From assembly GCA_002633005.1 (NCBI GenBank), contig NMRA01000841.1:55911-119910 (forward strand): 64,000 bases of DNA, given 5' to 3'. The position numbers and the translations under genes were made by a program. A model generated the notes under the pieces. It searched no databases. It was not told the origin of the DNA and saw nothing but the letters and a program-made list of their open reading frames with translations. The stretch comes from Phoronis australis (taxonomy: Eukaryota; Animalia; Phoronida). Within the stretch, counting starts at the first letter, position 1. Each line of letters opens with the position of its first letter. This document shows, in pieces, positions 20,001 to 26,000 of this stretch.

Positions 20001-23000
20001 ATTTTTTAACCTCTGCAAAAGAGGATGTCTGGTTGAATTTGTAAGTTGGAGTTGAAAATGAGTAAATCTGATCTAACATTTAAGAATGGTAGCATGTTTT
20101 TAAGTTTGTCTTCCCTCTGTTCAGGTCTGGTGAAAATGATGTTGAGAACAGCCAGCCATACTACAATGGTCATACCTTCCTGTCGCTGCCCATCCAGCCA
20201 CCGCAGAGTAATTATAAAACTTCTTTAAGGCCAAAAATTTGACTTTCTGTGAAATGTTTATAATAATTTCCTGTTTCAAATGTCCTTCGCCCGATGTATG
20301 TGTACTAACAGCTGATACAGTGACCAGTATACTTCAAGTAACAATCAAAAATATGCTACGAATTTTCATTACTTATATATATATGCTGTATTATTTTCTG
20401 TTTGATACATATTGATGTATGCCATATGAGTAGATTATAGCTCAAGAAAGTTTTGTTGTTCTACGGAAACAACTATTTTAATGTCAAGCCTGTACCTCAA
20501 AGTCTTTCCAGTATAGGCATAAGTCATTGGGAAGCTTTCATAGCATGGAAAACAGATATAATATCAAAAAGGGGTGACCAGGATAATTTGGAAAACATGT
20601 TTTGGCAAAGTTTTTGAGTAAAATATTCAGATATATATGTGTACGCCCACATATAGATGTGTGTACGCCCACATATAGATATGTGTACGTCCTCATATAG
20701 ATATGTGTACGTCCTCATATAGATATGTGTACGTCCTCATATAGATATGTGTACGCCCACATATAGATATGTGTACGTCCTCATATAGATATGTGTACGT
20801 CCTCATATAGATATGTGTACGTCCTCATATAGATATGTGTAATGTCCACATGTGTAAACCTACAAATAGATATGTCTAGGCTTACCTGAAATTAAAAAGA
20901 TACGTTTTTGTGAGGAGCGCATAAGCCAACGTTGATCTTCACATGAATTCGCATACTACTGTGCCCCCTAGTGACATTTTTAATTTTTCTGCTTCACCTG
21001 GATATCACTAGGCAGTGAAGCAACTCAGATGATGCTCAGACTAATCAATGCACACCTGTCTGAACCCAGAGGTGAGAGGGAGTCGTCAGAAGAACGTGGG
21101 GCCACTGGAGCGACCCAGGACAGTACTCCTGATGGTAAGAAACCAGCTGTGGTTACAATGGAAGTTTTTCTGACGTTTTTGCTTTCAATTTTCACAGAAA
21201 AGTTGTTAGTTACTTTTAAATCCAGCTTATACGGAGCCATGAGACAAAACTGCAAAGTACCATGATAGCAGTCACTGTGTAAAATTTCATTAAGAATTTA
21301 GCCAAGCTATGTATTCACAAATACTTGTAATTCTCCAAAAAACATTCTTATCTGGGGCGCTTTGCTTTCCTGGACAGATGTTGTTTGTGGGCTTTGAAGG
21401 GATGAGTTGTGCATTAATACATAAAAGTGCCGGGTGGAATTGAAACATTGGGACTGTTTTTTTCTGGTGTTTTCTTTTGAATTTTGGGATGTGGCTGTTC
21501 TGTTGTTACTGTAGTCGCTTGTTCCCAATGTTTCAGTGCTTTCAGCCGTTTCTCTACAAATTCTTTGATCTATACTGTATTTGTGGAACATTTTCATTTG
21601 TAGATAGTTCAAAGACTGATGTAACATGCCCTTCTCCTCACGACATTGTGTTTGGTATGTTTACATGTTACTGTAATATGCATTTCCACGGATATTTTGA
21701 TATGTTACTGTTTAATAGTAGTGTTTTACAATTCCGTGGTACAATTAGCCCAAGTGTAGGCAGACCAGAGCACTGTTTGTTACACAAGTGCATTCTTTCA
21801 GGACAAGATATATACAGTGAACTATGTTTTTGAATATAAATTAAAAGTATGTTTTATTCATCATTCCACTTTAAAACTTTCATTTTGGCTGAATAAAATT
21901 AATTAATATTTAACCTCATTATCCTAACATTAATATCTATTCGTAATTGTTTACTATTTACATATTAGTTTCAGTTCACACGACTGTCCATAAAACCATG
22001 TTTTGCCAAGTAGTTTGTGATTGGTTGGTCCGAGTTTGTAGCATAAATCACAGGCTTCCACGAGCAATTATCTTCACTTAAAAATTCTGCTAAATACTTA
22101 GAAATGTCACTGCACGCCCTACTTTTTGATGTTTTCTTGCGCTGTAACTTTCTCTGGAACTGCACTGCCACGGAATCCATTCTTGCTCTTTTATACTCTG
22201 GTCGCCTGCGATTTTGAACCTCTGTTTTTTCACTGTCATTAAAACACTGCTCACTGTCTTCTGGCAAAGCTAGATTGGCCGTTATGAGAGATAGATTAGT
22301 TCTCACTTTTTCCACAAGATGGCAAAGTTGATCGTGGTACAAAGTATTCACCACATCCAGCCGAGACATTCTTGTGTGCTCATCTAATGTTTGCAAGTCA
22401 ATGCAAGCCATCTCATCGTGACGCTGGGCTTCAATCAAATCTACGTGAGTGTAAAAGAACTTGCGAAGATTTTGTACCTTTTTGTCGGTTGACTTCCCCA
22501 AGCGTTCAAACGTGGCTTGTAGGTGTGCTTTCTTGATGTGAAGCTCTGAAATCAACGATGGAGTATAAGAGCTTATGACTCTTGTGGTCGCGAGTACATT
22601 GAAGTTCTCAGTGCCCTCGGTTTGCTCAGTCAACTCTTCTTTTGTTGCCTGTGACATTTCTGAAATGAATGACATTCATTAACCACATTTATAAGAGGCA
22701 TGTTGTTCCTATAAAGCAAGAAATTAACCAAAATGTCACTTTTGTTTCTTTAAATATTCTGTTAACAATTAATGTTGATCCAGCAATGAATTGATGTTTT
22801 TGATTTCTTTATGACCGTGACCCTTACTCAGTTTTCAATAACTTTCTCACTGGATTCTTTACCTGAGTTCTTTTCAAACTTCCACAACTCCATTTTTGAC
22901 AACCTGTTCTCTCTGACCGTGTTGCACAAATGAAGAATTGCAGCTGAACTCCTCTGTATGTCACTATACATATGCAAATACTTGTTTTGGATCCTGTGAT

Positions 23001-26000
23001 TGGTGGTCTCAACTGTGCTTTCTATGCATATGCAAATAAGGCTCAATGAGTTTTAGTGATTGTTTACCTCAGGTCTGATGGTCTCAGCTGTGGTCACTTT
23101 ACTTATATGCAAATGCTCCCATCTGCTTTTGTGATTGGTCAAGTTTGTCATGTGAATCAGGCTGTCAGAGGACCATGTAAATAAAATCTCAGTAACTGCA
23201 GAAGACAGTCCTGTAGTTCTACTTTATTGAAACTCCCATAATTCTGCTTTTTCAATGAGTTACCCTATTTTGTGTACCAAACTTGATTTGAATGTGATAT
23301 TAAGTCAGCATATTCAATGATTTGATTTGCTGTATTTTTTCATAAAATATGAATGGGAAGGGGAATTTAAAAGTGGAAAATTGTGCCCATGAATAGTAAA
23401 GTGTAAAAAAGAAACTTTCAAGACACAGGATACTGAAAGAGGATGTCCTACTTTGGTAGATTTGGTTGGGAAGATCTCTCCATGAGAGTTGTATTCCCTT
23501 ATTTGCATACTTTCTGTCACATCCATTTGCTCTTTGGATCTTATCTGACGTTTGAAATTTCGAAACATAATTGCCTAGACTACCATGTTTTTTCTCAGAA
23601 TCATTGTAAAATCATTGAAATTCGGGTTTTCTGACTATGTGATATTTTCGAGTAATGCATCACATTCGTTATTTTTGTTTCTTTCAGCTAATGAGTCACT
23701 GCTCCAAACTGGCCTTAGTGCAGCAGCAGATACCAGTTTTGGTGCTGGTAATGGTATGTTTACAGTGGAATGATGAAAATGATCTAGCCAAGATTATTTT
23801 TACAAAGATGTAAAATTTGCCTAGGAGTGTTTTTAAGAACATTTTTGGTCCTCAGCTACTGATATTTCATTATTGTTTGGAAATTTAATGGTTTCCACAC
23901 CTTCCAAATGTCATTCAATGAATACTTTTTCCAGTGAAGCATTACAATCCCATAGAACTGAATTCATTTGATATCAAATTCAATTCCCAGTACTGTTTTA
24001 ATTAGTGATATATTTTTCATAAATGATGGTAAAGTCATCCATATCAAATTACCTAAAAGAAAGAAACCAGACACTTTGTGACATTTCTTCTCACAGATGT
24101 CGACGATGAGACAAGCATCCTTGATTTATCTCTGGAGCAATATCCAATTGAGGACGAACTCGACCGAAGTGCCATTGATAGACTGACAGCACAAGTTCAG
24201 TGCATCCCCGCACTCAATACAGCTCGTCTCATAGCCCGCATGAGGTAAAGGCCACTGTCTTAAGTGCAATTATGTTTTCTAGTGTCCTGTAAACTGACCA
24301 TGAAGAAGCAATTCAGTAGCTTGATTAATAAATACTTATCGTAGATAACCTTGAAAGGTTCAACAATAGGTTCTGTGTATGGAAAGTGAAAAAGGCTAAA
24401 AACTCGCATAAAGTTTGATGCGAGAAATATCTCCCCGCATTGTGTGATTGTCTTGTGTTCATGTGTTCATTAACGCTTGGCAACAATAGCAATAACTCCT
24501 ATTGCTAGTTTTGTGTTTATAGGGAGTAAAAATTGGTATAAAAGGATAAGTGATATCCTGGAGAACTCGTGGAATATGAAAACACAATGCCAGAGGGAAC
24601 CTCTTGTAGATGGGCCTTTGAATCCAATGACTAAATTCTGGGGTGCATGGCAGCTTTCTGTGAAGCTATTTTCATGTGATATAACACAAATCTTTGAGTG
24701 GCATTGTTATACTTTAAAGAGTTCCCACCGTGCATTTTCGGTCAGTTTTGTTAGTTAACTAATGAAATGAATACCATAAAAGCTAACTAAATAAGCACTT
24801 TTGATACCAAATAGTCCTGAATGTTTTGAAGAAAAATTATTTATTTCCAAGTTTCCCGCCAAATGATGTAATGGGTGGTCACTTGACAATCAACTGCAGT
24901 GGTGAAACACAGCAGATCAGAAGATGAGAACGATTTTGAACGAGAACTGGACAGTTAGTACGCAGACACTCAAGTACTTGAACAATCTGATGATGAATTC
25001 GATTTCCCACTTAGCGAACTTTCGTCTGCTCTGAGGCCGTATGAATTCGACCCATAGTTGCACGAGAAATGCTGCAGACATATGTGAGCCACAACCAACT
25101 GAACCAAGGAGTGGTCAATATTCACAAAGTAGACACCTAATAAACACTGACAAAGACCACAGTAAACCTGAGTCACTTGTTTTCACTATTGCCATGGTGG
25201 AAAGAGCATGGTCTAAACACAATGTATAAGCCTACGCGGTGTCGTTGTACTCAATTTGAGCTGGGGTCGAGGGCCTATCATCACTCGCCCTAGAATGCAT
25301 GCAGTTTGTTTGCTATTTATAAAATTTTCAAAGTGGCGAGTCTTTCATCGTAACGCCGCTTTTGGGTTTAGTCGAACCACCATTCCTTGAAATGTGCGGA
25401 ACAAAGTGTGGCGCTTGACAGAATCGCATGTTCCACTCGACATTCAACACTCGTGCAGCGCACAAACCCATGACATTTCTGTGCAACTTTCTCATATTTA
25501 GGCTATTCAAACATAGAGACATTCTCGGTCAAGCTGCAGCCTCCACAAATGCACCTTTTCATGTCTGAAAGAGGCGGTTCTCTGTGGACTTTCATCACAA
25601 ATCCTAGGTATTGCACTGGTAAAAACAATTGCGGCGGAGACCGTCTTCCAACCGTTACGTACAACCTCGATAACAGAAAATATATGTTTTTTAATTTTTG
25701 GCTTGTTTCTTAGCAACAGGTATACTAAAGGCTATTAAATCTGTCAAGATATATAAAATGAATTTCTTTTAGAGACACAGCGTCATGGTGGGAACTCTTT
25801 AAGCAAAGTACATGATCACAATTGTTTTACTGACAAGTGTCTTGTATCTGCAGAATATGCCTGAGGCTTGCAACAATTTGAGGAATCTTGACAAATCTTA
25901 CTTTTGGATGTTTTTGTAATTACAACACAATAATATTGTGTTAATTTGAATTGACTTGCTTTCAGTTTGCTTGTCCAAGATGCCCAAAAACTGAAGCAAA

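What the first reader, a model, noticed from the sequence alone, without database searches (positions are those of the whole stretch)
22972..23138. Triple octamer + CCAAT composite module with fixed spacing upstream of the nested gene
Seen: three perfect ATGCAAAT octamers within 143 bp (each preceded by AT/TAT), each followed by GTGATTG(G/T), which is CCAAT on the gene's strand in two of three. Offsets are 27, 29 and 27 bp while the spacers are dissimilar, which argues against a simple tandem repeat. Known: ATGCAAAT is the POU/Oct site and CCAAT the NF-Y site, and the pair occurs in histone H2B promoters. Inference: a dedicated POU/NF-Y promoter driving strong germ-line or early-embryo expression of the nested gene.
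Basis: partly seen in the sequence, partly recalled or inferred. Interest (0 to 1): 0.7.

Follow-up and report, generated by a model that had tools for sequence, protein, structure and literature searches.

The report
Triplicated octamer/CCAAT promoter of nested gene
Just upstream of where an expressed gene hidden inside an intron of TRIM37 starts, a short DNA unit lies in three old copies that kept an octamer and a CCAAT-type motif while the rest drifted; it is likely the POU/NF-Y promoter of that gene, which looks like an embryo-patterning (SPILE/TALE) family member without its DNA-binding domain.

Summary
Observation confirmed: three octamers, each followed 27/29/27 bases on by (A)TTG of GTGATTG, far beyond chance. 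RNA reads show a spliced minus-strand gene inside a TRIM37 intron whose 5' ends lie at about 22895-22921, with no minus-strand reads over the module. The octamers therefore sit near -65, -123 and -200 of a TATA-less start; intact CCAAT boxes near -90 and -225. DNA contigs show one copy. Expression is moderate (about 11-13 reads/kb/million) and on/off (2 of 3 raw-read runs); tissue unknown. The 228-aa product matches 17 of 21 PADRE columns (non-blind test) but has no detectable homeodomain. Binding by POU and NF-Y and germ-line/early-embryo use are inferred. The scan noted an amplified CCAAT/TALE promoter array before, in another genome.

The parts
22970..22979 (-). Unit 1 octamer (ATTTGCATAT on the gene's strand), about -62 to -69 of the 22910 pile-up
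22994..23006 (-). Unit 1 CCAAT box, 12 of 13 positions of a recalled extended NF-Y consensus, first C at -93
23028..23037 (-). Unit 2 octamer, about -120 to -127; overlaps a near-palindrome that resembles a POU dimer site (recalled, untested)
23054..23066 (-). Unit 2 box: CAATCAC kept but core reads ACAAT, not CCAAT (10 of 13); AACAAT is a Sox-type word (recalled)
23105..23114 (-). Unit 3 octamer, about -197 to -204
23129..23141 (-). Unit 3 CCAAT box, 12 of 13, first C at -228
22941..22969 (.). Unit 1 flank with E-box CAGCTG (22941-22946) where a TATA box would be; no TATAWAW match in 22850-23600
23003..23027 (.). Unit 2 flank, homologous to unit 3 flank (18/25), E-box CAACTG at 23010
23078..23104 (.). 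Unit 3 flank, E-box CAGCTG at 23085
22895..22921 (-). 5' end zone of the nested transcript; 6 of 16 molecules end at 22910 in X7, farthest read reaches 22921; Inr-like TCAG with A at 22914 (inferred)
22863..22910 (-). Non-coding exon 1 (longer form to 22828)
   Evidence: joints 22659-22863 (9 and 19 reads) and 22659-22828 (6 reads)
22660..22862 (-). 5' UTR intron, GT..AG on the minus strand
21971..22657 (-). Intronless 228-aa ORF; residues about 46-126 PADRE-like helical domain; no detectable homeodomain
21853..21858 (-). AATAAA near where minus-strand coverage ends (about 21860); likely poly(A) signal
21655..23687 (+). TRIM37 intron that holds the whole nested gene and the module
   Evidence: joint 21653-23687 (3+3 reads); host identity

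Best explanation
The module lies 60 to 230 bases upstream of the 5' end of an expressed, spliced antisense gene inside a TRIM37 intron, and is likely that gene's TATA-less promoter, built by an inferred old triplication of a 60-75-base unit whose octamer and CCAAT-type motifs were likely kept by selection. In the likely mechanism NF-Y binds the two intact CCAAT boxes and opens the region, a POU protein (Oct1/POU2 type or another octamer binder) binds the three octamers, and together they start transcription near 22910-22921, against the host's direction. Shown: motifs, homology of the flanks, 5' end zone, splicing, on/off expression, single copy. Inferred: triplication, selection on the motifs, identity of the factors. 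Weakest step: oocyte or early-embryo use (about 0.55), which rests only on the gene's likeness to SPILE genes.
For: 5' ends at 22895-22921 and zero minus-strand depth over 22922-23340 in X6 and X7; nested-gene joints 15 and 19 reads in X6 and X7, 0 in X8, while the host joint 23752-24096 has 7, 4 and 3. X5 (another study, RNA only by guess) has contigs on the ORF and none on the module. 2 of the window's 8 RCCAATCA sites and 3 of 5 TATGCAAAT sites fall in the module. Invariant columns cluster on the two motifs: runs of 10 and 7 among 27 invariant of 64 columns, p 1e-5 by column shuffling (biased, since the repeat was found by these runs). One 4-kb contig per DNA run, no second contig at 80%. 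Oct-1 plus NF-Y sites at -121 to -75 are described for human GADD45A (PMC7037490, passages). NF-Y acts at promoters in oocytes and at genome activation in vertebrates (PMC11802806, passages).
Against: No binding, chromatin or reporter data. RNA-seq read ends are not cap sites; only 18-19 in 100 of each run was read, about 13-19 reads deep. Unit 2 has lost CCAAT. No orthologue was found, so conservation between species is untested. The DNA runs are probably the window's own source, and contigs miss old, diverged repeats. The spacing signal in public metagenomes did not survive a prokaryote control (12 of 21 against 37 of 94, p 0.11; against 8 of 19, p 0.26). Unit 1 and 2 flanks are only weakly alike (7/25, p 0.03). 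Coding polymorphism gives only borderline support for a functional ORF (6 synonymous, 8 non-synonymous, pN/pS 0.35, p 0.051).
Confidence: 0.68

Rival explanations
1. It is the promoter, but the kept box is read by another factor: TGATTG is kept in all three units while CCAAT is kept in two, so a PBX/TALE-type, Sox or Gfi1-type protein could bind there beside the POU protein (motif labels recalled).
For: Unit 2 keeps 8 of 9 box columns but breaks the CCAAT core; TALE and NF-Y co-occupy sites at zebrafish genome activation (10.1101/720102, search listing and start of abstract only).
Against: Units 1 and 3 match 12 of 13 positions of the recalled NF-Y consensus and the nearest lies near -90; the TALE site described next to CCAAT lies 11 bases upstream of it, not on it (PMC7793273, passages).
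Confidence: 0.13
2. A neutrally decaying triplication that happens to lie upstream of the start; the motifs are leftover identical runs and the real control elements are elsewhere.
For: Flank homology shows common descent, which alone explains equal offsets; other decayed tandem repeats occur in the window.
Against: Invariant columns cluster on exactly two textbook motifs, in the orientation and at the distance expected from a start mapped independently by RNA; no TATA box offers another driver.
Confidence: 0.1
3. The unit came from an old transposon or LTR promoter cassette that the nested gene captured.
For: A dispersed repeat family in gene-poor metagenome contigs (L026, L051, L053, L074, L075, L085) carries the same octamer-17-GTGATTGG composite; a 25-base 92% match to unit 1 lies at 18926-18949 (E 0.014).
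Against: No second contig at 80% in two DNA runs; no blastn match of the module to 222 fetched loci better than E 0.06; no foreign RNA reads on it.
Confidence: 0.09

Closest known systems
Oct-1 + NF-Y promoters such as human GADD45A (PMC7037490, PMC4889920; passages read)
   Same: Octamer and CCAAT box together within about 120 bases of the start.
   Different: Here the pair is tripled at a near-constant offset, in an invertebrate, upstream of a nested antisense gene; binding untested.
Vertebrate histone H2B promoter (Oct-1 and CCAAT listed for human core histone genes in PMC1794435 Table 1, passages read; the CCAAT-octamer-TATA order is recalled)
   Same: CCAAT upstream of ATTTGCAT upstream of the start, same orientation; unit 2 has the extended octamer context recalled for H2B.
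   Different: No TATA box, no histone gene, a spliced transcript with a likely poly(A) signal, three copies.
SPILE / spiralian TALE genes with a PADRE domain, D clade (PMC8524836 passages and supplement 1 parts 1-3 of 6; PMC5322547 passages)
   Same: PADRE columns matched 17 of 21 without gaps inside blocks; the inner gap of 24 residues is D-like (longer than A/C) by eye; host gene scores best to brachiopod, annelid and nemertean TRIM37.
   Different: No detectable homeodomain; no relative found by three sequence searches; nested in TRIM37.
Tandem-amplified CCAAT/TALE promoter array at UBL5 (earlier scan note e1-9598423, unchecked)
   Same: Promoter made of old head-to-tail copies with intact motifs and drifted spacers.
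   Different: About a dozen 53-base copies with TALE sites at a housekeeping gene, against three copies with octamers at an on/off gene.

Membership tests
Proximal Pol II promoter of the nested gene | Lies directly upstream of the transcript 5' end, on the right side | tested here: met
   Read ends 22895-22921, none beyond; not cap-mapped
Proximal Pol II promoter of the nested gene | Needed for transcription; open chromatin | not testable with these tools
   Needs reporter or ATAC data
Oct-1/NF-Y composite promoter | Consensus octamer and CCAAT box near the start | tested here: met
   3 of 3 octamers perfect; 2 of 3 boxes intact, 12 of 13 to a recalled consensus
Oct-1/NF-Y composite promoter | Bound by a POU protein and NF-Y | not testable with these tools
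   No binding data
Oct-1/NF-Y composite promoter | Spacing fixed by selection, recurring at unrelated loci | tested here: inconclusive
   9 of 12 against 26 of 86 within the metagenome scan (p 0.004, band chosen after looking; 16-18 band p 0.027) but 12 of 21 against 37 of 94 in prokaryote genomes (p 0.11)
Histone H2B-type promoter | TATA box downstream of the octamer (recalled feature) | tested here: not met
   No TATAWAW in 22850-23600; an E-box sits at -27 to -36
Histone H2B-type promoter | Drives a replication-dependent histone gene | tested here: not met
   Product has no histone Pfam match and is spliced
snRNA-type distal octamer element | A small RNA gene downstream | tested here: not met
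   0 Rfam matches at E 1 in 21000-24500
Common dispersed repeat | Further copies in the genome | tested here: not met
   One contig per DNA run at 80% likeness; old diverged copies could be missed; no whole genome held
Decayed tandem triplication | Homology outside the motifs | tested here: met
   Flank p 0.03, 0.002, 0.0002; spacer not similar
SPILE/TALE transcription factor (nested gene) | PADRE domain | tested here: met
   17 of 21 column classes; 3000 shuffles reach at most 12, rest of window at most 11. Classes were read by me from the printed alignment after I had seen the query, so not blind; no profile search confirmed it
SPILE/TALE transcription factor (nested gene) | TALE homeodomain | tested here: not met
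   No homeobox Pfam match at E 10; no PYP or WF-N-R motif in any frame of the window; no further splice in RNA. An eroded relic at about residues 157-200 is possible by eye only
SPILE/TALE transcription factor (nested gene) | Maternal or cleavage-stage expression | not testable with these tools
   Run tissues are not shown; on in X6 and X7, off in X8

The most novel reading that the evidence does not exclude
An octamer and a CCAAT box 16-18 bases apart form a selected POU/NF-Y grammar that switches on oocyte or cleavage-stage genes in spiralians, and here a tripled copy of it gave a new intronless PADRE-only gene its own promoter inside TRIM37; the protein, lacking a homeodomain, would act as a natural dominant-negative partner of SPILE cell-fate factors.
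Probability: 0.15. Interest if true: 0.72.

Novelty: new variant of a known kind. Interest (0 to 1): 0.42.

Why it matters
Nothing turned up in my searches on how SPILE-family genes are switched on. A 170-base element with a mapped start, three near-replicate units and one naturally decayed box is a ready reporter for early-embryo transcription in spiralians, and a small example of a promoter built by local duplication. A transcribed PADRE gene without a homeodomain would offer a first handle on what the PADRE domain does alone. The motif pair itself is ordinary.

Tried and rejected
No whole genome is held, so genome-wide enrichment of the pair could not be tested. Protein searches for the nested product found nothing: word-based search twice, 1.84 billion representatives (0 at E 0.001), ESM Atlas twice, PDB sequences (best E 0.15), Pfam. 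The single-sequence model (mean pLDDT 52.8; residues about 41-120 at 71-83) gave only generic helical-bundle matches (best Z 10.1, rmsd 4.5, 104 aligned), uninformative; PBX/MEIS domains are neither shown nor excluded. No RNA holder was listed by word share; raw-read runs were laid instead. The per-segment identities and run test are void (unit 3 was misaligned) and were redone. Its first split looked significant but a second split with equal flanks and a prokaryote control (104 loci, 94 families) did not; adding the preceding T gave 11 of 16 against 13 of 28 (p 0.13) and 11 of 36 against 13 of 94 (p 0.03, post hoc). Pfam on 81 of 102 frames picked from 20 of those loci and Rfam on 20 loci showed no histone, homeobox or snRNA genes. 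Earlier scan notes had nothing for this genome, relatives or protein. Literature searches for a fixed octamer-CCAAT distance or SPILE promoters found none; the ENCODE NF-Y passages name no POU factor with positional bias, and POU2F2 data had been withdrawn; their supplementary tables were not read and may bear on this. PMC11741299 and PMC6118893 (passages) added little.
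Full report
Observation. The shared word is longer, ATATGCAAAT, and all 3 copies in the window lie here. The cluster is far beyond chance under Markov backgrounds (about 2e-4 for the triplet, about 1e-9 more for the partners), although octamers overall are not enriched (8 against 6.55).

Setting. The plus-strand host is TRIM37: its MATH exon matches annotated TRIM37 proteins at 82-91%, and summed tblastn scores are highest for brachiopod, annelid and nemertean proteins, with a beetle protein among them, which points loosely to a lophotrochozoan. 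A PP2C gene follows tail to tail. The module and a minus-strand ORF lie in one host intron, about 21655-23687.

RNA. Three raw-read runs of one study and one older contig set were laid (18-19 in 100 of each raw run read). Host exons are read on one strand, the nested gene on the other, at depth 13-31 in X6 and X7 and 0 in X8. A 5' UTR intron is cut at 22660-22862 (9 and 19 reads) or 22660-22827 (6 reads), so the protein starts at 22657 and has 228 residues. At finer bins and 80% likeness, minus-strand coverage falls off between 22895 and 22921, with 6 of 16 molecules ending at 22910 in X7, no loose ends there, and zero depth over the module. Relative to 22910 the octamers are at -62/-69, -120/-127 and -197/-204 and the boxes begin at -93, -153 and -228; there is no TATA box. 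The level is moderate, about 13 and 11 reads per kb per million (rough estimate from depth). The tissues are not shown, so the germ-line or embryo reading cannot be tested.

Origin. The spacers are dissimilar (4/16, 6/16, 8/16), but the flanks on the other side of the octamer are alike (p 0.03, 0.002, 0.0002; 7/25, 10/25, 18/25 when anchored) and each carries an E-box. The simplest history is an old triplication with periods of 58 and 77 bases. Invariant columns cluster on the two motifs (p 1e-5), which suggests selection, though the test is biased by how the repeat was found. In two DNA runs the stretch lies in one 4-kb contig with no second contig at 80%: not a young common repeat; these runs are probably the window's own source.

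Is the spacing a grammar? Common descent alone explains 27/29/27. I scanned public metagenomes for the composite with gaps of 14-20 (truncated, 118 loci). In gene-poor loci with an intact CCAAT, gaps of 16-17 held 9 of 12 families against 26 of 86 others (p 0.004 for a band chosen afterwards; p 0.027 for the window's 16-18). With equal flanks and a prokaryote control this fell to 12 of 21 against 37 of 94 (p 0.11) and 8 of 19 (p 0.26). It remains a lead.

The gene. No search found a relative. By eye, residues 46-126 follow the PADRE alignment printed in the supplement of PMC8524836; 17 of 21 column classes match, against at most 12 in 3000 shuffles and 11 elsewhere in the window (not blind). 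This part is predicted helical with fair confidence. The inner gap looks D-clade-like; D-clade SPILE genes are maternal in limpet and mussel (PMC8524836, passages), and most novel oyster TALE genes are expressed from egg to blastula (PMC5322547, passages). No homeodomain is detectable and RNA shows no further exon. Variants in reads give pN/pS 0.35 (6 synonymous, 8 non-synonymous; p 0.051).

Mechanism. Most likely NF-Y on the two intact boxes (12 of 13 to a recalled consensus) and a POU protein on the three octamers drive a TATA-less start that lets the gene be switched independently of its host. The pair is known from human GADD45A and listed for histone genes; NF-Y is active in vertebrate oocytes and at genome activation. 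Position, splicing and on/off expression are shown; triplication, selection and factor identity are inferred; stage is a guess from family likeness. Rivals are another reader of the TGATTG word, a neutral decayed repeat, and a captured transposon cassette.

Verdict. The less ordinary element is the PADRE-only gene it serves. New variant of a known kind; interest 0.42.

Noticed in passing
window 21971-22657 (-): Expressed, intronless PADRE-like ORF with no detectable homeodomain and no database relative; possibly a retro-type copy of a SPILE D-clade gene. One allele in X6 shows a 2-base loss at 21971, at the stop codon (4 of 11 reads).
   Followed up: partly
window 23497-23509: A fourth perfect octamer, inverted, sharing an exact 13-mer with unit 2's context and flanked by TGACAG; no GTGATTG partner.
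   Followed up: partly
window 18926-18949: 25-base, 92% match to unit 1's flank and octamer (one octamer mismatch) in another TRIM37 intron, E 0.014.
   Followed up: no
window 23175-23182: One-mismatch octamer 68 bases beyond unit 3, roughly in register; may be the remnant of a fourth unit or chance (seen).
   Followed up: no
window 21609-21654 (+): Small TRIM37 exon, apparently joined between the exons ending near 21138 and starting at 23688.
   Followed up: no
window 22774-23685 (+): Low plus-strand intronic coverage (1-4) across the module in X8, the run where the nested gene is silent; pre-mRNA or read-through, too few reads to judge interference.
   Followed up: no
window about 7682-28000 (+) and 32793-33848 (-): TRIM37 tail to tail with a PP2C (PPM1E-like) gene; the same neighbours are recalled for vertebrates, unchecked.
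   Followed up: no
window 49968-50891 (+): THAP-domain ORF in a GC-rich patch (E 3.9e-15), possibly a P-element-type transposon or THAP gene.
   Followed up: no
L026, L051, L053, L074, L075, L085: A dispersed repeat family in gene-poor metagenome contigs that carries an exact octamer-17-GTGATTGG composite; a second family (L020, L021, L033, L052, L084, L093, L101) has the octamer with a TGATTGA variant.
   Followed up: partly
window 20627-20841, 28003-28151, 40912-41181: Young minisatellites of 22, 49 and 19 bases, showing that local tandem duplication is common here.
   Followed up: no
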